Both the position numbers and the translations under genes were made by a program. A stretch of DNA of 21,272 nucleotides from a virus (Duplodnaviria; Heunggongvirae; Uroviricota; Caudoviricetes), in the IMG/VR virus record IMGVR_UViG_2778261501_000004, positions 1 through 21,272 of that record; one strand, given 5' to 3'. A model generated the notes under the pieces. The model was given only the letters and a program-made list of their open reading frames with translations, was not told the DNA's origin and did no database searches. Shown here one piece after another: positions 1 through 11,053 of this stretch (position 1 is its first letter; each line of letters opens with the position of its first letter).

Positions 1-981
1 TTATAACGTCACTCCGCCTTTTAGTGGATTCAGAGCGACGGCGTTCTGCAGGTAGTCAGGCGCAAGGTGCGCATAGGTCATTGTCTGCTGAATGCTCGCA
101 TGCCCCAGAATCTGTTGCAGTGCAATTATGTTGCCCCCATTCATCATGAAATGGCTTGCGAATGTATGCCGCAGAATGTGGGTTGCCTGATTGGGAGGTA
201 TATCAGGTTTCACTCTGCGTAAAATCCCGCAAAACTTCTCATAATCTACCTTGAACAATTTGGCGCTGGCCTCCTCTTTAACTTTTTTCTCCAGTTCCTC
301 AGAAATCGGCACTGTTCGCTTTTTACCGTTTTTGGTTTTCAGGAAGGTAACCCTGCAACTTGTAATCTGTGCTGGTTTTAGCGTGGCAACTTCCGTCCAT
401 CTTCCTCCAGTGCTCAGACATAAAAGCGCGACAAGTAAGTCATCACCAGTCAAAACATTTAGCAGTTTTTCGATTTCTGCTTTTTCCAGGAACGTCATTT
501 CAGGGTTAGCCTCCGTCAGTGGCGGCAGTCCGTGAATTGGGTGTTGCCCGGAAAATTCATCCAATTGAATTAATTTTGTGAACATGCCGGATAATCGGTA
601 CATGTCGCGGTTTATCGTTGCAGCACTGATGCCATCACGTAGTCGCATGGAGCGATAATCCATCAAAGCCCTTTTGTTCATCCGGCTCACTGGTATATCA
701 CCTATGCCGCTGATGGTTTTGAGCAGATGATTAAACTCTTTTGTCCCATGCTCGTGGTTTTGCCCGTGGTATTTCCACCAGATGTCGAGCAATTCTGTCA
801 AAGTTCGGCGGTCTGCTCGCTGGCCTCCCCATTCTTTCTGACTGGCATTGGCGATTGTGTATCGCTCAAATGCTAGTGCTTCAGCTTTTCTTTCAAATTT
901 CCTGCGGATGCGTTTTCCGTCGCGACCGCGAGGTCTAATGTCCACTTCATAGCGACCATCATCGAGCTTCTTAATTGCCAT
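1..981 (-). CDS. int: Tyrosine integrase of P2/186 type, int. The ORF extends to 1011, but the ATG at 981 has a GGAGGG Shine-Dalgarno and gives an MAIKKLDDGRYEVD N-terminus.
   Basis: N-terminus MAIKKLDDGRYEVDIRP and the C-terminal HxLRHTFA…Y catalytic region typical of P2 Int. Stop TAA at positions 1–3. The upstream ATG at 1011 has no RBS. Confidence 0.85.
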   Translation of the reverse strand: MAIKKLDDGRYEVDIRPRGRDGKRIRRKFERKAEALAFERYTIANASQKEWGGQRADRRTLTELLDIWWKYHGQNHEHGTKEFNHLLKTISGIGDIPVSRMNKRALMDYRSMRLRDGISAATINRDMYRLSGMFTKLIQLDEFSGQHPIHGLPPLTEANPEMTFLEKAEIEKLLNVLTGDDLLVALLCLSTGGRWTEVATLKPAQITSCRVTFLKTKNGKKRTVPISEELEKKVKEEASAKLFKVDYEKFCGILRRVKPDIPPNQATHILRHTFASHFMMNGGNIIALQQILGHASIQQTMTYAHLAPDYLQNAVALNPLKGGVTL

Positions 982-1050
982 AAGAAAGCCCTCCGGCGCT
1001 GTATTCACCATCTTGGTGGCAAATGGTGAAAATGTAATTTTTATATAGAG

Positions 1051-3237: not shown

Positions 3238-3509
3238 GTATTCGTATTGAAATTGGCGAACGTTATGTCGTTACCAGTGACAGCTTTCAGTTTATTCTCC
3301 ACGAGAAAAAGAGAGCGGAAAGCGGTAAAAACGCCGGTCAGGAATGGCTGTCGGTGGTTGGTTATTATCCGAAATTAAGCCAGCTCGTTTCCGGCCTGAT
3401 GCATCACGATATTCTGACCGGAAGCGCAAAGTCTTTTGCTGATTTAAACGCGCAGGTTGAGCAACTCAGCAGGCGTTGTTCAGAGGCTTTTGGCTCATAT
3501 GGCCGTTAA
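3234..3509 (+). CDS. Hypothetical early protein, P2 orf83-like.
   Basis: 91 aa. ATGA overlap with the upstream gene. GGAGA Shine-Dalgarno. Confidence 0.55.
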   Translation: MSIRIEIGERYVVTSDSFQFILHEKKRAESGKNAGQEWLSVVGYYPKLSQLVSGLMHHDILTGSAKSFADLNAQVEQLSRRCSEAFGSYGR

Positions 3510-5784
3510 AGCCTCCGGGCGTTTTGTCCCTCCGTCAGCATTTGCCGCAGGCACCGGTAAGGCGTTTACCGGTGCTTATGCATGGAACGCGCCACGCGAG
3601 GCTGTCGGGCGCGAAAGACCCCTTACACGTGACGAGATGCGTCAGGTGCAAGGTGTTTTATCCACGATTAACCGCCTGCCTTACTTTTTGCGCTCGCTGT
3701 TTACTTCACGCTATGACTACATCCGGCGCAATAAAAGCCCGGTGCACGGGTTTTATTTCCTCACATCCACTTTTCAGCGTCGTTTATGGCCGCGCATTGA
3801 GCGTGTGAATCAGCGCCATGAAATGAACACCGACGCGTCGTTGCTGTTTCTGGCAGAGCGCGACCAGTATGCGCGCCTGCCGGGGATGAATGACAAGGAG
3901 CTGAAAAAGTTTGCTGCCCGTATCTCATCGCAGCTTTTCATGATGTATGAGGAACTCTGCGATGCCTGGGTTGATGCACATGGCGAAAAAGAATCGCTGT
4001 TTACGGATGAGGCGCAGGCTCACCTCTATGGTCATGTTGCTGGCGCTGCGCGTGCTTTCAATATTTCCCCGCTTTACTGGAAAAAATACCGTAAAGGGCA
4101 GATGACCACGAGGCAGGCATATTCTGCCATTGCCCGCCTGTTTAACGATGAGTGGTGGACTCATCAGCTTAAAGGCCAGCGTATGCGCTGGCATGAGGCG
4201 TTACTGATTGCTGTCGGGGAGGTCAATAAAGACCGTTCTCCTTATGCCAGTAAACATGCCATTCGTGATGTGCGTGCGCGCCGCCAGGCAAATCTGGAAT
4301 TTCTTAAATCGTGTGACCTTGAAAACAAGGAAACCGGCGAGCGCATCGACCTTATCAGTAAGGTGATGGGCAGTATTTCTAATCCTGAAATTCGCCGGAT
4401 GGAGCTGATGAACACCATTGCCGGTATTGAGCGTTACGCCGCCGCAGAGGGTGATGTGGGGATGTTTATCACGCTGACCGCGCCGTCAAAGTATCACCCG
4501 ACACGTCAGGTCAGAAAAGGCGAAAGTAAAACCGTTCAGCTTAATCACGGCTGGAACGATGAGGCATTTAATCCAAAGGATGCGCAGCGTTATCTCTGCC
4601 GCATCTGGAGCCTGATGCGCACGGCATTCAAGGATAATGATTTACAGGTCTACGGTTTGCGTGTCGTCGAGCCACACCACGACGGAACGCCGCACTGGCA
4701 TATGATGCTTTTTTGTAATCCACGCCAGCGTAACCAGATTATCGAAATCATGCGTCGCTACGCGCTCAAAGAGGATGGAGACGAAAGAGGAGCTGCGCGA
4801 AACCGTTTTCAGGCAAAACACCTTAACCGGGGCGGTGCTGCGGGATATATCGCGAAATACATTTCAAAAAACATCGACGGCTATGCACTGGATGGTCAGC
4901 TCGATAACGACACCGGCAGGCCGCTGAAAGACACTGCAGCGGCTGTTACCGCATGGGCGTCAACGTGGCGCATCCCGCAATTTAAAACGGTTGGCCTGCC
5001 GACAATGGGGGCTTACCGTGAACTACGCAAATTGCCGCGCGGCGTCAGCATTGCTGATGAGTTTGACGAGCGCGTCGAGGCTGCACGCGCCGCCGCAGAC
5101 AGTGGTGATTTTGCGTTGTATATCAGCGCGCAGGGTGGGGCAAATGTCCCGCGCGATTGTCAGACTGTCAGGGTTGCCCGTAGCCCGTCGGATGACGTTA
5201 ACGAGTACGAGGAAGAAGTCGAGAGAGTGGTCGGCATTTACGCGCCGCATCTCGGCGCGCGTCATATTCATATCACCAGAACGACGGACTGGCGCATTGT
5301 TCCGAAAGTGCCGGTCGTTGAGCCTTTGACTTTAAAAAGCGGCATCGCCGCGCCTCGGAGTCCTGTCAATAACTGTGGAAAGCTTACCGGCGGTGATACT
5401 TCGTTACCGGCTCCCACACCTTCTGAGCACGTCGCAGCAGTGCTTAATCTGGTTGATGACGGTGTTATCGAATGGAATGACCCGGAGGTCGTGAGGGCGC
5501 TCAGGAGCGCATTAAAATACGGCCTGAGAACCTCAAACCGTCAGCAAAGAAACGGAAGCCCGTTAAAACCGCATGAAATTGCACCATCGGCCAGACTGAC
5601 CCGGTCGGAAAGAATGCAAATTACCCGTATCCGCGTTGACCTTGCTCATAACGGTATCAGGCCGCAGCGATGGGAGCTTGAGGCGCTGGCGCGTGGCGCG
5701 ACCGTAAATTATGACGGGAAAAAATTCACTTATCCGGTCGCTGATGAGTGGCCGGGATTCTCAACAGTAATGGAGTGGAAATGA
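3499..5784 (+). CDS. A: Replication initiation protein A, a rolling-circle nicking endonuclease. The ATG at 3499 gives 761 aa, the same as P2 gpA.
   Basis: Large basic protein at the gpA position. The HxH-type motif 'HWHMMLF' and the Tyr-rich 'AAGYIAKYISKNIDGY' segment fit the rolling-circle Rep superfamily. The track's ORF starts earlier at a TTG at 3457. Confidence 0.85.
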   Translation: MAVKASGRFVPPSAFAAGTGKAFTGAYAWNAPREAVGRERPLTRDEMRQVQGVLSTINRLPYFLRSLFTSRYDYIRRNKSPVHGFYFLTSTFQRRLWPRIERVNQRHEMNTDASLLFLAERDQYARLPGMNDKELKKFAARISSQLFMMYEELCDAWVDAHGEKESLFTDEAQAHLYGHVAGAARAFNISPLYWKKYRKGQMTTRQAYSAIARLFNDEWWTHQLKGQRMRWHEALLIAVGEVNKDRSPYASKHAIRDVRARRQANLEFLKSCDLENKETGERIDLISKVMGSISNPEIRRMELMNTIAGIERYAAAEGDVGMFITLTAPSKYHPTRQVRKGESKTVQLNHGWNDEAFNPKDAQRYLCRIWSLMRTAFKDNDLQVYGLRVVEPHHDGTPHWHMMLFCNPRQRNQIIEIMRRYALKEDGDERGAARNRFQAKHLNRGGAAGYIAKYISKNIDGYALDGQLDNDTGRPLKDTAAAVTAWASTWRIPQFKTVGLPTMGAYRELRKLPRGVSIADEFDERVEAARAAADSGDFALYISAQGGANVPRDCQTVRVARSPSDDVNEYEEEVERVVGIYAPHLGARHIHITRTTDWRIVPKVPVVEPLTLKSGIAAPRSPVNNCGKLTGGDTSLPAPTPSEHVAAVLNLVDDGVIEWNDPEVVRALRSALKYGLRTSNRQQRNGSPLKPHEIAPSARLTRSERMQITRIRVDLAHNGIRPQRWELEALARGATVNYDGKKFTYPVADEWPGFSTVMEWK
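5350..5369 (+). other. Putative origin of replication (nick site) inside gene A: GCGCCTCGGAGTCCTGTCAA.
   Basis: P2 ori lies inside the 3' part of A. This 20-mer matches my recollection of the P2 nick-site region. Position and memory only. Confidence 0.35.
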
Positions 5785-6227
5785 TGGCAAAAATTCACGA
5801 GGTAAAGCTGCACGCCAAATATTTTGACCTTGTGCTGGAAGGAAAGAAACGCGCAGAGTTTCGGAAAAATGACCGTAATTATGAGCGCGGGGACACGTTG
5901 ATTTTGCATGAATGGGTACAGGGTGTGTATACGGGGCGAAAGGTTGAAGCCCGGATAACAGATGTTACTGACCTGTCAGACTGGCTGGAAGATTATGTCT
6001 TGCTAAGTATTGAGCGGCTTAATACAGGCGCATATGAGATTGTGAACTGGAAAGAACTTAGTGAGCGTGGTCTGGTATTCAGAATTAATCATGAAATTAT
6101 GCATCAGCTCGGCCTTGCTGTTATGTATGAGCCGGAGACGGGGCTGTCTGGCGGGGCAGTGGTTACTGCGGATGGGATATGGAACTATTCAGATGAACAG
6201 GTGGAGCGTACAAAGCAAAACGGGTGA
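5784..6227 (+). CDS. ASCH/DUF3850 (PUA-like) domain protein.
   Basis: N-terminal segment KIHEVKLHAKYFDLVLEGKKRAEFRKNDRNYERGDTLILHEW is typical of ASCH/DUF3850. ATG overlaps the A stop (ATGATGG). GGAGT Shine-Dalgarno. Confidence 0.65.
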   Translation: MAKIHEVKLHAKYFDLVLEGKKRAEFRKNDRNYERGDTLILHEWVQGVYTGRKVEARITDVTDLSDWLEDYVLLSIERLNTGAYEIVNWKELSERGLVFRINHEIMHQLGLAVMYEPETGLSGGAVVTADGIWNYSDEQVERTKQNG

Positions 6228-6235
6228 CTTGGATA

Positions 6236-6442
6236 ATGCACAGAATACCAGGCGAGATACCGCACCATAAAACTAAAAATATCAAGCTGATGGCTATTGT
6301 TCAGCGTTTACAGCGGATTATGGTCAACGAAAATCTGACGCCCGATGAGCTGGTCGGGTGTGCCGAAATAGTCCGGGATAATTACGGGCGGTTTAACCAT
6401 ATCGGTCAATCAAGAGTTACGCCACCACCACGCAGACGATAG
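6236..6442 (+). CDS. Small hypothetical protein of about 68 aa. The start is uncertain; the alternative ATG at 6290 gives 50 aa.
   Basis: ORF directly after the ASCH gene. No strong RBS. Arg/Pro-rich tail (TPPPRRR). Confidence 0.3.
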   Translation: MHRIPGEIPHHKTKNIKLMAIVQRLQRIMVNENLTPDELVGCAEIVRDNYGRFNHIGQSRVTPPPRRR

Positions 6443-6639
6443 AGAACGCCGCCAGTCGTGAAACTTGTTTTCAGGGCTGGCGGGGTTGAACAACGAGCGA
6501 AGCGAGGCGTTAGCTAGGCTTTCTATATTGTTTACAATTAAACCTATCCAGAATTAATTGGAATTCAATTTGATCTTTTTCTCGCTACATATGGCCACAA
6601 GTACCAAAACGTGAGAACATCAAAGCTAGGCGAAATCTA

Positions 6640-6695
6640 GCTTTTCCATAGGAGTTGTTTCGTTATAATACGCGGTCGGTTTTTAGGAGGGGTCA
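6640..6695 (+). promoter_or_regulatory. Candidate sigma70 promoter and RBS for the methyltransferase: -10 TATAAT at 6664–6669 and AGGAGG at 6685–6690.
   Basis: Perfect TATAAT 26 nt upstream of a perfect AGGAGG. The -35 is weak (TTTCCA/TTCCAT region). AT-rich foreign DNA. Confidence 0.4.
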
Positions 6696-7634
6696 ATGCC
6701 AACTGTAGTGTCGCTTTTTTCCGGGTGTGGTGGTTCTGATGCAGGAGTCTTGAAGGCTGGGTTTGATGTTCTAATGGCGAATGACATTTTACCTTACGCT
6801 CGTGATGTGTATTTGGCTAACCATCCAGAAACTGATTATGTTTTGGGTGATGTCTCCACTATTGAATCGTTTCCATCTGCTGAACTGCTGGTTGGTTGCT
6901 ATCCCTGTCAAGGTTTTAGCCAAGGTGGAGTTCGAAAAGCTGATAGAAAAATTAATACGCTATACTTAGAGTTTGCAAGAGCTTTAAGAATAGTTAAGCC
7001 AAAAGCGTTCATTGTTGAAAACGTTTCTGGCATGTTGCGAAGTAACTTTGAACATTTGTTGAAAGATCAGTTCAAGGTTTTCGAAGAGGCTGGTTACAGA
7101 GTTAAATCTAAAATTCTAAATGCTTCTCATTTTGGTGTTGCTCAGGATCGTAAGCGCATTTTTATTGTTGGCATACATGAGAGATTTGGAGTTGATTTTT
7201 CGTTTCCAGTCGCGACTCATGGCGAAGGATTGAAAAGAGTGACTACTATCCGTGATGCGATAGGTTCGTTACCGGAATGGCCTGTTGGAGAGTTTTATGA
7301 TGCCGATTTCCATTGGTATTATTTATCAAGAAATCGCCGTCAGGACTGGGATCAAATCTCAAAAACCATAGTTGCTAATCCAAGGCATATGCCTTTACAT
7401 CCAATTAGTCCAACTCTTATAAAGTTAGGTCCAGATAAATGGCAATTTACATCAAATGAACGTGCACGGCGTTTTAGTTTTCGTGAGGCTGCTTATCTTC
7501 AAGGATTTAGTAATTTAGTTTTTCCTGAAACAGAGCGAGCATCCATGAATATGAAATATACAGTTGTCGGAAACGCCGTACCGCCCCCTTTATTCGAAGC
7601 GGTAGCGCGTTCATTACCTGATATTTGGGATTAA
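6696..7634 (+). CDS. DNA (cytosine-5)-methyltransferase, a compact 312-aa enzyme.
   Basis: Motif I FSGCGG, motif IV PCQGFS (catalytic Cys), motif VI ENV, motif VIII QDRKRIF, motif X GNAV. A variable target-recognition domain lies between VIII and IX. Confidence 0.9.
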   Translation: MPTVVSLFSGCGGSDAGVLKAGFDVLMANDILPYARDVYLANHPETDYVLGDVSTIESFPSAELLVGCYPCQGFSQGGVRKADRKINTLYLEFARALRIVKPKAFIVENVSGMLRSNFEHLLKDQFKVFEEAGYRVKSKILNASHFGVAQDRKRIFIVGIHERFGVDFSFPVATHGEGLKRVTTIRDAIGSLPEWPVGEFYDADFHWYYLSRNRRQDWDQISKTIVANPRHMPLHPISPTLIKLGPDKWQFTSNERARRFSFREAAYLQGFSNLVFPETERASMNMKYTVVGNAVPPPLFEAVARSLPDIWD

Positions 7635-8560
7635 CTCAACACATAATCCATAGCCACTAAGTCATCAACAAACGTTAGATTGTCTTGGTGGTTTATCTGT
7701 GGATATTTTTTAGTCAGATTTACTAGTCTAAGTCTATCAACAAATATTGCAGCACCAAAATCACTCCTGTGAGCCCAGTCGCGGTTATGCCATCTTAAAT
7801 CTTGTGGAAGAAAATAATATGTTGACCATGGATGTAAGACAGGAAGCAAATTCCACAATTTAGCCGGTGTGGCCTCAAGTTGTTTTGCTACCCATTCAGT
7901 TTTTGAACATCCACATTGAGCAAGAGCAAGAGGTATAGACTCACGATTATCTCCCATATCATGCCAAGCGAGTATATCAATTCCTCCATCTCCCCTGTCA
8001 TTTGGTTTGAAATCTTCAATTGAAAAATTAGCTTTACATCTGAAATCTTGTGCTATTTTAGTTAACTTATCAAAGAGTAAGCCAGTGTAGTGACCTGAAT
8101 TACCTGCGCTAGCCCAACAGTGTTTAACTGTTGCTCCTTCAGGCATGAGGGCTTGAAATATGGGATAGCTTATTTTCTCAAATGCACTTGTAAATATGTC
8201 ACGGTGACTATTTTCTATATATTTTATATTTGCACAGGCTAAGAGTGCTATGTATAGTTTTTCATTTTGATTGTAATCAGCAATATTATGCTTTCTTAAG
8301 AATAATGTGTCTCTGTCATCAGAAAAATAAAAGGGGTAATCATCACCGAAAAGGCTAATTCTTGTGTCAATGAATGTCGCTGCAAAATTCCATTTATCGT
8401 CAGAATACCCGCGTGACTTTGGATTTGCTTGAGACCTAAAGAGGCTTGCTAGATCTCCTCTACTAAAGCATTTGTCTGTATTTACTGTAGCCCATAACTC
8501 TAAATAGTCGCCCCATAAATATGGCTCGTTATCGGGTAATGAGTCCATGTGAAAAATCAT
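7631..8560 (-). CDS. Putative restriction or effector nuclease with an Mrr-cat-like PD-(D/E)xK core and an N-terminal domain of unknown function (309 aa).
   Basis: The C-terminal half has GDGGIDILAW…(15 aa)…LALAQCGCSK, resembling the Mrr_cat motifs (D-G-G-I-D… and Q-x-K). Its ATG overlaps the upstream ParB-like stop (TAATG). Its stop overlaps the MTase stop convergently (TTAA). Confidence 0.6.
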   Translation of the reverse strand: MIFHMDSLPDNEPYLWGDYLELWATVNTDKCFSRGDLASLFRSQANPKSRGYSDDKWNFAATFIDTRISLFGDDYPFYFSDDRDTLFLRKHNIADYNQNEKLYIALLACANIKYIENSHRDIFTSAFEKISYPIFQALMPEGATVKHCWASAGNSGHYTGLLFDKLTKIAQDFRCKANFSIEDFKPNDRGDGGIDILAWHDMGDNRESIPLALAQCGCSKTEWVAKQLEATPAKLWNLLPVLHPWSTYYFLPQDLRWHNRDWAHRSDFGAAIFVDRLRLVNLTKKYPQINHQDNLTFVDDLVAMDYVLS

Positions 8561-9639
8561 TATTCATCTTCCTCACGGATGCTTTCAATTTGTTTTTTAA
8601 TTTTACGCGCTATAGATAATATTTCACTCGAACGATATTCGTGATTTTCTGTGAAAGAGTGCGTGTTGAGAAGCATATCCCAAACAACTCTTAGTCGAGA
8701 TTCTGCTTGGTCTAGAGCTTGATCCAAAGCCTCTTCATGACCATTTGTATATAAATAGGCTTCTTCAATGTTTTTAGACTTTATGAGGTTATCTATTGCT
8801 GCTTCATTGGCAACTATTGTTGAAAGATTTTTGATCTTGCGACTTTCACCAATGATAGTATCACCCTGTTGATCTCTAACAAAGAACCAAGCAAAAAGCT
8901 TCTCAAGGTTTTCCTCTTTCAGGTTTTTAGCAGATAAATCTTTTCTATCATCTAAGCCTAACCAGTCTGTAATGTTAGTATATCCAAGAGCTGTTGTTAT
9001 GTAGGAAAAATCGACATCATTCTCACTCATATGCAAATTATAGAAGTTTTTATCAGCAGCGGTTTCATATAATTTGAGTGAAGTTAATAAAAGGCCGACG
9101 TAATAAGATTTACTGCCAATTTCTTTAGCTAATGACTTTAAAAGAGATTCTTTGTCTGCACCTTTGTAGAAAGTTTCACTAAGCTCCTTAAGATACTTAG
9201 CTTTAGAAAGTGCATCCCATTCTTTCACACCAGTAATGTGTCTATATCCGATATAACGTAACACATCTTCACGTCTTGTGTAGACGAGACAAGGTAATTT
9301 AGTCGGTTTATAAGTAGCATCGTCCTGAATTAGTTGAATGCTTTTTTCTTTTCTTTTAGGTGGTAAAAGTTCGCTATTGAGCAACTTTACGGCAGCAAGG
9401 CGACGGTTACCCTCAACTACAACATATTTTTTCCCGGAACTAACCACTAAAAGAGGTTCTCCGGGAAAGTAATCTTGTTCCCCTATGGACAGCATCAAAT
9501 CTTGTACACTTTCGTCATCAAGCATTTCTTCAATGACGGCATTTTCAGATCCAGCCCTATCGTTTAACCGATAGAAACGTGGGTTTTCAGGATCAAACTC
9601 TAGATCTTCCGTGTTTATGTATTTGATTTCGTTGCTCAT
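8560..9639 (-). CDS. ParB/Srx N-terminal-domain protein with a 250-aa helical C-terminal extension (359 aa).
   Basis: IKYINTEDLEFDPENPR…LMLSIGEQDYFPGEPLLVV…KYVVVEGNRRLAAVKLL matches the ParB-N fold signature (NPR… then GxRRxxA). First gene of a two-gene leftward operon. Confidence 0.7.
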   Translation of the reverse strand: MSNEIKYINTEDLEFDPENPRFYRLNDRAGSENAVIEEMLDDESVQDLMLSIGEQDYFPGEPLLVVSSGKKYVVVEGNRRLAAVKLLNSELLPPKRKEKSIQLIQDDATYKPTKLPCLVYTRREDVLRYIGYRHITGVKEWDALSKAKYLKELSETFYKGADKESLLKSLAKEIGSKSYYVGLLLTSLKLYETAADKNFYNLHMSENDVDFSYITTALGYTNITDWLGLDDRKDLSAKNLKEENLEKLFAWFFVRDQQGDTIIGESRKIKNLSTIVANEAAIDNLIKSKNIEEAYLYTNGHEEALDQALDQAESRLRVVWDMLLNTHSFTENHEYRSSEILSIARKIKKQIESIREEDE

Positions 9640-9830
9640 AATTGTATTCTGCGCAGATATAAGGATGACTTGCTACAGCATAACCTTATGTTTAGCATCT
9701 GTCATTATGATGGCTGCCTTATGCATGATTTTGCATCCATTTTTTATTTTATTTTTTTGGGGGCGCATTAGGCCCGATATGGTTTTTGGAGACGATGCGT
9801 TTGCATCAAAACAGCCCCATGAAGCGGGCG

Positions 9831-9849
9831 GGCGAGGCGGGGAAAGCAC
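9831..9849. other. cos site: GGCGAGGCGGGGAAAGCAC, the 19-nt cohesive-end sequence of P2.
   Basis: Matches the P2 cos 19-mer as I recall it. Lies between the cargo and the Q terminator as in P2 (…old-cos-Q). G-rich terminase-binding flanks at 9850–9990. Confidence 0.7.
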
Positions 9850-10018: not shown

Positions 10019-11053
10019 TCAGCCGTTGTCAGTGTCCAGTGAGTAGTTTTTAAAGCGGATGACCTCCTGACCGAGCCAGCCGTTTATCTCGCGGATCCTG
10101 TCCTGTAACGGGATAAGCTCATTGCGGACAAAGACCTTTGCCACTTTCTCAATATCACCCAGCGACCCGACGTTCTCCGGCTTGCCGCCCATCAACTGAA
10201 AGGGGATGCGGTGCGCGTCCAGCAGGTCAGCGGCGCTGGCTTTTTTGATATTAAAAAAATCGTCCTTCGTTGCCACTTCACTGAGCGGGATAATTTTTAT
10301 GCCGTCGGCTTTCCCCTGTGGGGCATAGAGAAACAGATTTTTAAAGTTATTGCGGCCTTTCGACTTAACCATGTTTTCGCGAAGCATTTCGATATCGTTG
10401 CGATCCTGCACGGCATCGGTGACGTACATGATGTATCCGGCATGTGCGCCATTTTCGTAATACTTGCGGCGGAACAGCGTGGCCGACTCATTCAGCCAGG
10501 CAGAATTAAGGGCGCTCAGATATTCCGGCAGGCCGTACAACTCCTGATTGATATCCGGCTCCAGCAGGTGAAACACGGAGCCGGGCGTGAAGGCTGTCGG
10601 CTCGTTGAAGGACGGCACCCACCAGTAAACATCCTCCTCCACGCCACGGCGGGTATATTTTGCCGGTGAGGTTTCCAGTCTGATGACCTTACCGGTGGTG
10701 CTGTAACGCTTTTCCAGAAACGCATTACCGAACACCAGAAAATCCAGCACAAAGCGGCTGAAATCCTGCTGGGAAAGCCACGGATGCGGGATAAATGTCG
10801 AGGCCAGAATATTACGTTTGACGTAAATCGGTGAGCTGTGATGCACGGCAGCACGCAGGCTTTTTGCCAGACCGGTAAAGCTGACCGGTGGCTCATACCA
10901 TCTGCCGTTACTGATGCACTCGACGTAATCCAGAATGTCACGGCGGTCGAGTACCGGCACCGGCTCACCAAAGGTGAATGCCTCCATTTTCGGGGCGCTG
11001 GCGGTCATTGTTTTCACCGCTGGCTGCGGTGTTTTCCCTTTTTTCTTGCTCAT
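10019..11053 (-). CDS. Q: Portal protein Q.
   Basis: 344 aa, the same as P2 gpQ. Start ATG overlaps the P stop (TGATG). Conserved position next to cos. Confidence 0.9.
   Translation of the reverse strand: MSKKKGKTPQPAVKTMTASAPKMEAFTFGEPVPVLDRRDILDYVECISNGRWYEPPVSFTGLAKSLRAAVHHSSPIYVKRNILASTFIPHPWLSQQDFSRFVLDFLVFGNAFLEKRYSTTGKVIRLETSPAKYTRRGVEEDVYWWVPSFNEPTAFTPGSVFHLLEPDINQELYGLPEYLSALNSAWLNESATLFRRKYYENGAHAGYIMYVTDAVQDRNDIEMLRENMVKSKGRNNFKNLFLYAPQGKADGIKIIPLSEVATKDDFFNIKKASAADLLDAHRIPFQLMGGKPENVGSLGDIEKVAKVFVRNELIPLQDRIREINGWLGQEVIRFKNYSLDTDNG

What the first reader, a model, noticed from the sequence alone, without database searches (positions are those of the whole stretch)
6696..7634. Compact C5-MTase with its own promoter and unknown specificity; convergent overlapping stop codons with the nuclease gene
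All canonical m5C motifs are present in only 312 aa (FSGCGG, PCQ, ENV, QDRKR, GNAV), so the target-recognition domain is short and its site cannot be read from sequence. The MTase 3' end overlaps the 3' end of the convergent nuclease gene by 4 nt, so the two transcripts must collide or overlap. Transcriptional interference or antisense control of restriction versus modification timing is plausible, and there is no C-protein controller.
Basis: partly seen in the sequence, partly recalled or inferred. Interest (0 to 1): 0.5.

Follow-up and report, generated by a model that had tools for sequence, protein, structure and literature searches.

The report
Prophage methylase in three-gene restriction cassette
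An intact HaeIII-like DNA cytosine methylase in a P2-like E. coli prophage is probably the protective half of a widespread, uncharacterised three-gene restriction-modification-like cassette, whose cutting half pairs a ParB-like protein with a nuclease-fold protein. The overlapping stop codons are real and common in this gene family, but nothing shows that they regulate anything.

Summary
ORF 6696-7634 (+) is a 312-aa C5-MTase with all the motifs intact (catalytic Cys71). Its TAA shares 4 nt (TTAA, 7631-7634) with the stop of a convergent 309-aa gene.

The interpretation needs three corrections.
1. The unit has three genes. A ParB/Srx-fold protein (8560-9639, -) is coupled to a winged-helix + PD-(D/E)xK-fold protein (7631-8560, -), and both face the MTase. 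This triad recurs in 90 loci from P2-like phages and from beta/gamma-proteobacterial chromosomes. It also occurs in phage Wphi (mth/orf96/orf98) and is listed, untested, in a published survey of the P2 hotspot.
2. The specificity can be partly read. The protein aligns end to end with M.HaeIII (GGCC). The published HaeIII base-contact residues (S224, R225, R227, R243) are conserved across the family, so GG(m5C)C is predicted with moderate confidence.
3. The 4-nt overlap is a family trait (35 of 84 loci) but not obligatory. A hairpin followed by U6 (7646-7712) may end the MTase transcript early. Control by colliding transcripts is untested.

No C-protein is present, and a conserved TATAAT supports an own promoter. 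Most likely this is a restriction-modification cargo cassette beside cos in the P2 A-Q hotspot. The MTase is ordinary. The ParB-like restriction partner is the interesting part.

The parts
6696..7634 (+). C5-cytosine DNA methyltransferase, 312 aa. HaeIII-family TRD, predicted target GGCC. Catalytic Cys71. TRD contact residues S211, R212, R214 and R230.
   Evidence: ORF and motifs. Family scores: PF00145 E=2.9e-60, TIGR00675 187 bits. End-to-end alignment with M.HaeIII 1dct, E=3e-46. Contact residues. 84% identical to phage Wphi Mth.
7631..7634 (.). TTAA: 4-nt overlap of the two convergent stop codons.
   Evidence: The same -4 arrangement occurs in 35 of 84 unique related loci.
7631..8560 (-). 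309-aa protein with an N-terminal winged-helix-like domain and a C-terminal PD-(D/E)xK-fold domain. Candidate restriction nuclease. The conserved core is G190-D191-G192-G193-x-D195, D204, Q215-C216, W223 and K226.
8560..9639 (-). 359-aa ParB/Srx-fold protein with a ParB-like N-domain carrying G77-N78-R79-R80 in place of GERR, a helical domain resembling a ParB/KorB DNA-binding domain, and a long C-terminal helical part. Its stop overlaps the start of the 309-aa gene by 1 nt.
6664..6690 (+). Candidate proximal MTase promoter -10 (TATAAT, 6664-6669) and Shine-Dalgarno sequence (AGGAGG, 6685-6690).
   Evidence: Invariant in 26 unique enterobacterial upstream sequences. TAnAAT-like boxes sit at similar positions in many distant loci. 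The consensus scan did not call it because the -35 is poor.
6592..6620 (+). Invariant TGGCCA (6592-6597, contains GGCC), a 17-nt spacer, then TGaGAACAT (6612-6620). This may be an upstream extended -10 promoter whose -35 holds the predicted methylation site. Speculative.
   Evidence: The enrichment of GGCC upstream is not significant once related sequences are collapsed: 13 of 27 clusters against 9.5 expected.
7646..7712 (+). Long hairpin (7646-7704) followed by AUUUUUU (7705-7711). Candidate intrinsic terminator of the MTase transcript, lying inside the 3' end of the convergent gene.
   Evidence: Fold z=-3.25, with 1 of 200 shuffles as stable. An unrelated sequence in phage 12474III forms an analogous hairpin + U6. 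Other loci have hairpins without a U-run, and Wphi has none. The simple terminator scan did not call it.
9677..9705 (-). Candidate promoter of the ParB-like/nuclease operon: ATGACA, 17 nt, TATGCT.
   Evidence: Consensus scan, 9 of 12 matches. Conserved only in the closest relatives.
6514..9750 (.). Approximate extent of the low-GC cargo cassette (genes 37-41% GC, upstream intergenic region 43%, against 51-54% in the flanks). It lies between the conserved P2 backbone (A, DUF3850, orf92-like) and the cos region.
   Evidence: Composition. Backbone similarity in P2-like phages without the cassette ends at about window 6513. The cos site is at 9831-9849.

Best explanation
**What it is.** The ORF encodes an active, monospecific HaeIII-family DNA C5-methyltransferase. 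Its predicted product is GG(m5C)C. It is the modification arm of a three-gene restriction-modification-like cargo cassette in the A-cos-Q variable hotspot of a P2-like (Peduovirus) prophage.

**The restriction arm.** This is the convergent bicistronic operon. It encodes a ParB/Srx-fold protein (a probable NTP-binding and DNA-binding sensor or switch), translationally coupled to a winged-helix + PD-(D/E)xK-fold nuclease.

**How it most likely works.**
1. In the lysogen the MTase is made from its own promoter. The phage early operon is repressed there.
2. The MTase methylates host and prophage GGCC sites.
3. The ParB-like/nuclease pair attacks incoming DNA that lacks the mark.
4. As in any R-M system, loss of the cassette would be penalised.

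**The tail-to-tail 4-nt overlap.** This is an inherited compaction typical of the family. The transcripts probably overlap by at least about 80 nt, but a regulatory role is not shown.

**Shown:** gene content, intact motifs, folds, conserved linkage and the HaeIII-like TRD.
**Inferred:** methylation site, nuclease activity, restriction phenotype, the role of the ParB-like protein, and the promoters and terminator.
For: **MTase identity and intact motifs:**

**HaeIII-like TRD.** The contact residues are conserved in 22 family members, and also in the 39%-identical MTase of the L023-type loci.

**Linkage.**
- The order ParB-like, then 309-aa gene, then convergent orthologous C5-MTase occurs in 90 loci (84 unique). 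These come from IMG/VR phage contigs and from chromosomes of Methylomonas, Methylotenera, Sulfuricella, Gallionella, Porticoccus, Serratia and Intestinirhabdus.
- The MTase stays 67-88% identical where its partners fall to 25-55%. This is the usual R-M pattern of a slow MTase and a fast restriction enzyme.

**Decay pattern.** Two loci have a broken nuclease-fold gene with an intact MTase. No locus shows the reverse.

**Vsr.** A Vsr mismatch endonuclease sits beside the MTase in the Sulfurimicrobium locus.

**Folds.** PD-(D/E)xK for the 309-aa protein and ParB/Srx for the 359-aa protein.

**Location and composition.**
- The cassette is low-GC cargo at the known P2 defence hotspot next to cos (PMC9122126 and PMC9519451).
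- The arrangement 'DNA_methylase + hypothetical + ParBc' is listed among P2 hotspot loci.

**Precedents.**
- R-M modules occur in P2-like phages, for example KL3.
- A ParB-N-containing 'RM+Abi' system from the E. coli defence screen of PMC9519451, PD-lambda-5.

**Host compatibility.** E. coli W, the natural host of Wphi, lacks mcrBC and mrr. That fits a host carrying an m5C methylase.
Against: - No experiment bears on any function here.
- The canonical (D/E)xK lysine is not conserved. Q215 stands in place of E, residue 220 is K, Q or R, and the invariant lysine is K226. Catalytic competence is therefore unproven.
- The TRD alone is only 26% identical to HaeIII. A related site such as GGNCC or GGWCC cannot be excluded.
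- GGCC is not depleted inside the cassette: 5 observed against 5.6 expected. The window-wide O/E of 0.61 has no control.
- E. coli W carries the Wphi-type cassette but is described, from gene content, as 'restriction minus'. From my own knowledge it is routinely transformed with K-12 DNA. That argues against a strong classical GGCC endonuclease in that variant.
- The role of the ParB-like protein is entirely inferred.
Confidence: 0.6

Rival explanations
1. Convergent transcription across the overlapping 3' ends, through RNA polymerase collision or antisense RNA, sets the relative timing or level of methylase and nuclease. It would replace a C-protein.
For: The stops overlap by 4 nt, with no intergenic terminator and no C-protein. 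The tail-to-tail orientation is nearly universal: 82 of 84 loci, 69 of them with a gap of 9 nt or less.
Against: The overlap is not obligatory. Gaps range from 0 to 286 nt and beyond, and two loci are co-oriented. A hairpin + U6 at 7646-7712 may terminate the MTase transcript early, and a similar element arose independently in phage 12474III. No antisense promoter or RNA is documented. Tight packing is expected anyway in capsid-limited phage cargo.
Confidence: 0.2
2. The MTase is a self-standing phage 'orphan' or anti-restriction methylase that protects P2-like DNA from GGCC-type host enzymes. The ParB-like/nuclease pair is an unrelated neighbouring defence system.
For: The MTase has its own conserved promoter elements and is much more conserved than its neighbours. 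The same MTase (84-85% identical) is joined to very different partner versions in Wphi and 12474III. PADLOC also matches orphan-MTase models.
Against: The three genes travel together in 90 loci, including non-phage chromosomal sites. An MTase of the same TRD lineage is always present. Decay removes the nuclease-fold gene but never the MTase alone.
Confidence: 0.1
3. The ParB-like/nuclease pair is not a classical restriction enzyme for unmethylated sites. It would be an abortive-infection or modification-sensing module (like GmrSD, SspE or Menshen, or 'RM+Abi' like PD-lambda-5), and the MTase would have a different or accessory role.
For: ParB/Srx-type domains act as DNA or modification sensors and NTPases in GmrSD, SspE and Menshen (PMC12065111; PMC12839542). 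The N-terminal 155 aa match PD-Lambda-5_A. The nuclease motif is non-canonical. E. coli W is easy to transform (own knowledge).
Against: The ParB domain here is the classical ParB_N type (GxRR), not DUF262 (DGQHR). No HNH, HEPN or ATPase partner is present. PD-Lambda-5_B has no counterpart. Strict co-inheritance with one MTase lineage is what a cognate R-M pair predicts.
Confidence: 0.12
4. The ParB-like gene serves plasmid-like partition or maintenance of the phage genome. The MTase and 309-aa gene would be separate cargo.
For: Automatic annotation as 'ParB N-terminal domain-containing protein'. The protein has ParB-like N and DNA-binding-like domains.
Against: There is no ParA/ParM partner and no identified parS. 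The ParB_N Pfam score is below cut-off (17.4 against 26.3). The gene is translationally coupled to the nuclease-fold gene and is found on chromosomes in the same triad.
Confidence: 0.03

Closest known systems
M.HaeIII (GGCC C5-methyltransferase; PDB 1dct/3ubt) and the monospecific Type II m5C MTases
   Same: All ten-motif hallmarks are present. The alignment is collinear over residues 4-307 at E=3e-46. The TRD is homologous and conserves the HaeIII base-contact residues S224, R225, R227 and R243.
   Different: It is 18 aa shorter and lacks a 17-aa TRD insert. The TRD is only 26% identical. Its partner genes are unlike any described HaeIII-type endonuclease known to me. The specificity is not measured.
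Phage Wphi mth-orf96-orf98 (NC_005056) and the 'DNA_methylase + hypothetical + ParBc' arrangement in the P2 hotspot catalogue (Rousset et al. 2022, Table S5A)
   Same: Same three genes, same order, same position between A and cos/Q, and the same 4-nt stop overlap. The MTase is 84% identical with a near-identical TRD.
   Different: The partners have diverged: ParB-like 65% and nuclease-fold 48% identical, with a 31-aa indel. This exact variant is in 1 of 5426 complete E. coli genomes, and the Wphi-type in about 105. Neither has a tested function in the texts I could read.
PD-lambda-5 (Vassallo et al. 2022), a two-gene system described as a compacted 'RM+Abi'; many systems from that E. coli defence screen lie in P2-like prophages
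   Same: It comes from the same kind of E. coli mobile-element defence screen as other P2-hotspot cargo. It includes a methyltransferase and needed an mrr-deleted host. Its A protein shares the ParB-like N-terminal roughly 155 aa.
   Different: Only the N-terminus of the A protein matches. The 309-aa protein has no PADLOC hit, so B has no counterpart. The MTase here is a separate, convergent C5 enzyme.
GmrSD/BrxU, SspE and Menshen NsnA: ParB-superfamily (DUF262) sensor or NTPase coupled to a nuclease effector
   Different: Those use the DUF262 (DGQHR/DGxQR) branch and HNH/DUF1524 or other effectors. They are modification-dependent or Abi-type and have no cognate MTase. Here the domain is ParB_N-type (GNRR), the effector has a PD-(D/E)xK fold, and a cognate MTase is always present.
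Type II R-M modules carried by P2/P4-family elements (EcoRII-C/Vsr/M.EcoRII in Burkholderia phage KL3; EcoO109I in P4-like satellites)
   Same: These are R-M systems carried as cargo next to the packaging or portal end of P2-family elements. They include an m5C MTase, and some also carry Vsr.
   Different: Those have recognisable single-protein endonuclease families, and EcoO109I has a C-protein-like HTH. This cassette has a two-protein candidate restriction arm and no controller.

Membership tests
DNA (cytosine-5) methyltransferase (PF00145 / TIGR00675) | Profile score above the curated cut-off over the full length | tested here: met
   PF00145: 204.9 bits against a cut-off of 22, covering residues 3-307. 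TIGR00675: 187 bits against 100.65.
DNA (cytosine-5) methyltransferase (PF00145 / TIGR00675) | Catalytic motifs: I (FxGxGG), IV (PCQ with Cys), VI (ENV), VIII (QxRxR), IX and X (GNAV) | tested here: met
   FSGCGG 8-13, PCQ 70-72, ENV 108-110, QDRKR 150-154, RRFSFREAAYLQGF from about 258 to 271, GNAV 292-295 (aligned to HaeIII).
DNA (cytosine-5) methyltransferase (PF00145 / TIGR00675) | Methyl transfer to C5 of cytosine in DNA | not testable with these tools
   This needs a methylome analysis or a HaeIII-protection assay.
GGCC-specific (HaeIII-type) methyltransferases | TRD homologous to M.HaeIII, with the base-contacting residues S224, R225, R227 and R243 conserved | tested here: met
   S211, R212, R214 and R230 align to them. 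Their roles are taken from PMC3526282. They are conserved in 22 family members. TRD-only BLAST gives 26% identity, E=1e-9.
GGCC-specific (HaeIII-type) methyltransferases | Methylates the inner C of GGCC | not testable with these tools
   This is a prediction only. No methylome paper for a carrier strain was found.
Type II restriction-modification system | An MTase gene adjacent to, and co-inherited with, an endonuclease gene | tested here: met
   The triad is conserved in 90 loci. The nuclease assignment is by fold only.
Type II restriction-modification system | The endonuclease has an intact PD-(D/E)xK (or other) catalytic site | tested here: inconclusive
Type II restriction-modification system | Cleaves the unmethylated site and is blocked by the cognate methylation | not testable with these tools
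   This needs plating-efficiency and in vitro cleavage assays.
C-protein-controlled R-M systems | A small HTH controller gene with a C-box upstream of R | tested here: not met
   No HTH hit in the orf92-like ORF or in any small ORF of the island. An HTH_3 gene does occur beside the triad in the Sulfurimicrobium locus L005.
Druantia type II (DruM-DruF-DruG-DruE) | A DruM methylase together with the DruE helicase and DruF/DruG | tested here: not met
   The MTase hits the DruM2 model at 3.7e-105. The only other genes in the island are the 309-aa and 359-aa proteins, which have no Druantia hits. The hit reflects generic C5-MTase similarity.
PD-lambda-5 | Both PD-Lambda-5_A (full length) and PD-Lambda-5_B present | tested here: not met
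   Only residues 1-155 of the ParB-like protein match A models of 430-590 aa. Nothing hits B.
ParABS partition system | ParB scoring above the family cut-off, plus a ParA ATPase and parS | tested here: not met
   ParB_N scores 17.4 bits against a cut-off of 26.3. TIGR00180 scores 26.7 against 58.45. There is no ParA-like ORF in the island.
ParB/Srx fold superfamily | The ParB N-domain fold with the GxRR phosphate-binding motif | tested here: met

The most novel reading that the evidence does not exclude
The cassette would be a distinct, widespread class of restriction-modification system. Restriction of unmethylated GGCC would need a ParB/Srx-fold nucleotide-switch or clamp protein working with a non-canonical PD-(D/E)xK nuclease, a 'ParB-assisted' restriction enzyme. 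It would be tied to one HaeIII-like MTase lineage while the restriction pair diversifies rapidly. In the enterobacterial and P2 versions, MTase expression would additionally be tuned by methylation of an invariant GGCC lying in the -35 (TGGCCA) of an upstream promoter. That would replace a C-protein.
Probability: 0.3. Interest if true: 0.7.

Novelty: new variant of a known kind. Interest (0 to 1): 0.4.

Why it matters
The methylase alone is routine. The value is in what it anchors.

- **An uncharacterised restriction partner.** The 309-aa family comprises 1460 clusters at 50% identity. It has no Pfam family and no solved structure. It always travels with a ParB/Srx-fold protein and a HaeIII-lineage MTase, both in the P2 defence hotspot and on proteobacterial chromosomes.
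- **If the pair restricts unmethylated GGCC,** ParB-type nucleotide switches would gain a role in classical (modification-blocked) restriction. So far they are known in modification-dependent enzymes such as GmrSD and SspE.
- **A possible link to old genetics.** A 1967 paper on lambda restriction in E. coli W is the cited source of the standard Wphi lysogen. This cassette could be the genetic basis of that restriction. That is my recollection of the paper's content and remains unverified.
- **A practical point.** Lysogens would carry GG(m5C)C DNA. That affects cloning into McrBC+ hosts and digestion with HaeIII.

Tried and rejected
   - GGCC O/E is 0.61 across the window, but GATC is far lower at 0.29.
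   - The cassette itself has 5 GGCC against 5.6 expected.
   - With no matched control genome this does not discriminate.
2. **GGCC enrichment upstream of the MTase.** Across loci there are 63 sites against 25 expected, the highest ratio of all 4-bp palindromes. The signal collapses once related sequences are clustered: 13 of 27 clusters against 9.5 expected. Only the lineage-specific invariant TGGCCA remains.
3. **MTase-agnostic restriction pair.** In four loci the pair faces a roughly 1040-aa N6_Mtase/Eco57I-like protein, which suggested this idea. It is rejected because a HaeIII-lineage C5 MTase with the same TRD signature lies just beyond.
4. **PADLOC DruM2 best hit**. Rejected as membership, because no other Druantia genes are present.
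5. **Literature searches.** Searches for a methylome or a specificity of Wphi-type MTases, for the RefSeq protein accessions, and for ParB-linked R-M systems found nothing specific. Odegrip 2006, the Christie & Calendar P2 review and Kerszman 1967 are not held.
6. **Terminator for the minus-strand operon inside the MTase 3' end.** The fold is not significant (z=-1.8) and there is no U-run.
7. **Rfam.** No known RNA family anywhere in the window.
8. **Consensus promoter scan.** The number of hits equals chance and none lies upstream of the MTase. The promoter claim therefore rests on conservation only.
Full report
**1. Setting**

The window is a P2-like (Peduovirus) prophage of E. coli. Its layout is as follows:
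- an integrase-sized ORF at 1-1011 (-)
- replication gene A at 3457-5784 (+)
- a DUF3850/ASCH gene at 5748-6227
- a 72-aa orf92-like gene at 6224-6442
- three low-GC genes
- the P2 cos sequence GGCGAGGCGGGGAAAGCAC at 9831-9849
- portal gene Q at 10019-11053 (-), followed by terminase and late genes

The three genes therefore lie in the A-cos-Q variable region, the 'tin/old' hotspot. Two published surveys describe this region as a reservoir of anti-phage systems (PMC9122126; PMC9519451). Their GC content is 37-41%, against 51-54% in the flanks.

An almost identical locus (99.2%) is present in E. coli PSS-08-2. There the genes are annotated as DNA cytosine methyltransferase, hypothetical protein, and ParB/Srx family N-terminal domain protein. 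This exact variant occurs in 1 of 5426 complete E. coli genomes. A diverged version of the two minus-strand genes occurs in about 105.

**2. The observation**

ORF 6696-7634 encodes 312 aa carrying the following motifs:
- FSGCGG (8-13)
- PCQ (70-72, Cys71)
- ENV (108-110)
- QDRKR (150-154)
- a motif IX segment (RRFSFREAAYLQGF)
- GNAV (292-295)

These are visible. The protein scores far above the curated thresholds for C5-MTases.

Its TAA (7632-7634) and the stop of the minus-strand ORF 7631-8560 share the tetranucleotide TTAA. The description is correct.

It leaves out one thing. The 309-aa gene is the second gene of a bicistronic unit. The upstream 359-aa gene (8560-9639, -) ends on the first base of the 309-aa gene's start codon.

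**3. The neighbours**

*The 309-aa protein.*
- It has no Pfam, NCBIfam or PADLOC hit. It belongs to PHROG 3984, of unknown function.
- An AlphaFold2 model built on 31 homologues has pLDDT 84.
- A profile of distant members finds the MspJI catalytic segment as the best PDB sequence match, at only E=0.047.
- Residues conserved across the wide family are D191, D195, D204, Q215, C216, W223 and K226.
- The classical lysine two residues after the Q/E position is not conserved. 'Nuclease' is therefore a fold-level inference, not a demonstrated active site.

*The 359-aa protein.*
- Its invariant VVEGNRRLAAVKL aligns with the ParB GERRxRA nucleotide-binding motif.
- It is below threshold for the partition-protein families, and the island has no ParA.

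**4. Linkage**

I collected 24 loci from species-representative genomes and 65 from IMG/VR. Together with loci fetched individually, this gives 90 loci holding all three genes, 84 of them unique.

- In 82 of the 84, the order is ParB-like, then the 309-aa gene, then a convergent C5-MTase.
- The hosts include P2-like prophages of enterobacteria. They also include chromosomal sites in Methylotenera, Methylomonas, Sulfuricella/Sulfurimicrobium, Gallionella, Porticoccus, Aquabacterium and others.
- The MTase is always the slowest-evolving partner. It stays 67-88% identical where the ParB-like protein is 48-77% and the 309-aa protein 39-67%.
- In phage 12474III the MTase is 85% identical, but the partners are only 30% and 26% identical.
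- Against phage Wphi (mth, orf96, orf98) the figures are 84%, 65% and 48%.
- Four loci carry an extra N6_Mtase/Eco57I-like gene of about 1040 aa between the 309-aa gene and the C5-MTase. That C5-MTase still has the same TRD signature.
- Two loci have a disrupted 309-aa gene with an intact MTase. None shows the opposite.
- One locus has a Vsr gene next to the MTase.
- HMMER against 1.84 billion cluster representatives finds 1460 clusters of the 309-aa family. The ParB-like protein has 2602 hits in the word-indexed search.

This pattern is what a cognate modification/restriction unit predicts. It is hard to reconcile with an orphan methylase that merely sits next to another system.

**5. Specificity**

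Among all solved structures, only M.HaeIII (GGCC) aligns over the whole length, including the variable region. The E-value is 3e-46, against 6e-22 for the next best hit, which covers the N-terminal two-thirds only.

An open-access evolution study of M.HaeIII states the following (PMC3526282):
- Arg225 contacts the first G.
- Ser224 and Arg227 contact the inner bases.
- Arg243Gln lowers GGCC methylation.

These four positions are S211, R212, R214 and R230 here. They are conserved in every family MTase I aligned and in the 39%-identical MTase of the L023-type loci.

The TRD alone is only 26% identical to HaeIII. I therefore rate GGCC, or a close relative containing it, at roughly 0.5-0.6. The 312-aa size reflects the absence of a 17-aa HaeIII TRD insert and is not unusual.

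**6. Expression signals**

*Promoters.*
- The consensus scan finds no sigma-70 site upstream of the MTase. Overall it finds no more sites than in shuffled sequence.
- A perfect TATAAT (6664-6669) and AGGAGG (6685-6690) are invariant in 26 distinct enterobacterial upstream sequences whose mean conservation is 65%.
- Many distant loci have a TAnAAT box at a similar distance.
- A second invariant block is TGGCCA (6592-6597). It lies 17 nt before TGaGAACAT (6612-6620). That reads as a 4/6 -35 plus an extended -10, with the predicted methylation site inside the -35.
- This second promoter is only a lead. Once related sequences are collapsed, GGCC is not significantly enriched upstream of family MTases.

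*Terminators.*
- On the MTase strand a long hairpin (7646-7704) followed by AU6 lies inside the 3' end of the convergent gene. Its z-score is -3.25.
- Phage 12474III has an unrelated sequence forming an analogous hairpin + U6. Two other variants have strong hairpins without a U-run. Wphi and two distant loci have none.
- The opposite strand shows no convincing terminator inside the MTase gene.
- Some antisense overlap is therefore likely. It may be about 80 nt on the MTase side rather than gene-length.

**7. The overlap itself**

The MTase C-terminus is nearly always ...LPxxWD followed by TAA or TAG. The GAT-TAA/TAG junction automatically creates a minus-strand stop.

| 3'-3' arrangement | Loci (of 84 unique) |
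|---|---|
| 4-nt overlap | 35 |
| Gap of 0-9 nt | 34 |
| Larger gap | 13 |
| Co-oriented | 2 |

The overlap is thus an ancestral, frequently retained state of a tightly packed tail-to-tail unit. It is not a feature peculiar to this prophage, and it is evidently dispensable.

**8. Comparison with known systems**

- *The MTase.* It is a member of the C5-MTase family and, by TRD, of the HaeIII lineage.
- *Prior records of the cassette.* It matches phage Wphi's mth-orf96-orf98 and the catalogue entry 'DNA_methylase + hypothetical + ParBc'. I found no functional test of either.
- *Druantia.* It is not Druantia, despite the DruM2 hit.
- *PD-lambda-5.* It is not PD-lambda-5, because only the ParB-like N-terminus matches.
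- *Other systems.* It is neither a partition system nor a C-protein system.
- *Closest functional analogues.* These are ordinary Type II R-M modules carried by P2/P4-family elements. For the ParB-like partner, they are the ParB-superfamily sensor/nuclease enzymes GmrSD/BrxU, SspE and Menshen. Those use the DUF262 branch and have no cognate MTase.

**9. Caveats and leads**

- E. coli W carries the Wphi-type cassette. It is called 'restriction minus' on the basis of lacking hsd, mcrBC and mrr.
- From my own knowledge it is readily transformed. That sits uneasily with a strong GGCC endonuclease.
[quoted passage not shown] My recollection that it tied lambda restriction to the prophage could not be checked, because the paper is not held.

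**10. Verdict**

The methylase is an ordinary member of a known family with a predictable site. It belongs to a conserved three-gene R-M-like cassette whose ParB/Srx + PD-(D/E)xK-fold restriction arm is uncharacterised and moderately interesting. The colliding-transcript idea is neither excluded nor favoured by the comparative data.

Noticed in passing
window 9831-9849 (+): An exact copy of the 19-nt P2 cohesive-end sequence GGCGAGGCGGGGAAAGCAC (recognised from my own knowledge of P2). The cargo cassette therefore abuts cos. Conserved ATGCA-containing blocks (for example ATGCAAAATCATGCAT) lie between cos and the ParB-like start, and they are shared with Wphi and other relatives.
   Followed up: partly
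window 1-21272: GATC is strongly depleted: 25 observed against 86 expected from a Markov model, O/E 0.29. This is the lowest of all 4-bp palindromes. GGCC is second lowest at 0.61.
   Followed up: no
window 6449-6483 (+): A stem-loop lies just after the orf92-like stop: CCGCCAG, 21 nt, CTGGCGG, with an inner TGAAA/TTTCA pairing. It is conserved in Wphi. Phage 12474III has a compensatory change (CGCCAT/ATGGCG). No U-run follows, and its function is unknown.
   Followed up: no
window 6592-6597 and loci L002, L003, L007, L008, L033-L083: TGGCCA, containing the predicted MTase target GGCC, is invariant about 103 nt upstream of the MTase ATG in 26 distinct enterobacterial versions, although its flanks vary. 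Several versions have a second GGCC 11 nt upstream of the TATAAT. In L036 and L069 a GGCC directly follows the TATAAT.
   Followed up: partly
L023 4912-8058 (-); also L026, L027, L028: In Variovorax, Hydrogenophaga, Rhizobium-MAG and Pelomonas loci, an N6_Mtase/Eco57I-like gene of about 1040 aa sits between the 309-aa gene and a more distant HaeIII-lineage C5-MTase. In L023 it overlaps the 309-aa gene by 4 nt at the stops. It may be a second methylase or a Type IIG-like addition.
   Followed up: partly
L005 8171-8599 and 4274-4519 (Sulfurimicrobium MAG): A Vsr mismatch endonuclease gene lies directly next to the family MTase. An 81-aa HTH_3 gene lies divergently upstream of the ParB-like gene, so a C-protein-like regulator may exist in some family members.
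   Followed up: partly
L030 2697-3344; L092 4348-6489: Two loci have a fragmented 309-aa gene, split or interrupted by about 0.9 kb. In L030 the ParB-like gene is also truncated. The MTase is intact in both. This is the decay order expected for an R-M unit.
   Followed up: partly
window 5748-6227 (+): The DUF3850/ASCH gene overlaps the end of gene A by 37 nt. It carries an extra C-terminal DUF7415 domain that is absent from the 93-aa Wphi orf91 homologue.
   Followed up: no
L003 / NC_049457 (phage vB_EcoM-12474III): An MTase of the same lineage (85% identical) and a near-identical upstream region are joined to a ParB-like/nuclease-fold pair that is only 30% and 26% identical. This implies recombinational swapping of the restriction arm at the MTase 3' end.
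   Followed up: partly
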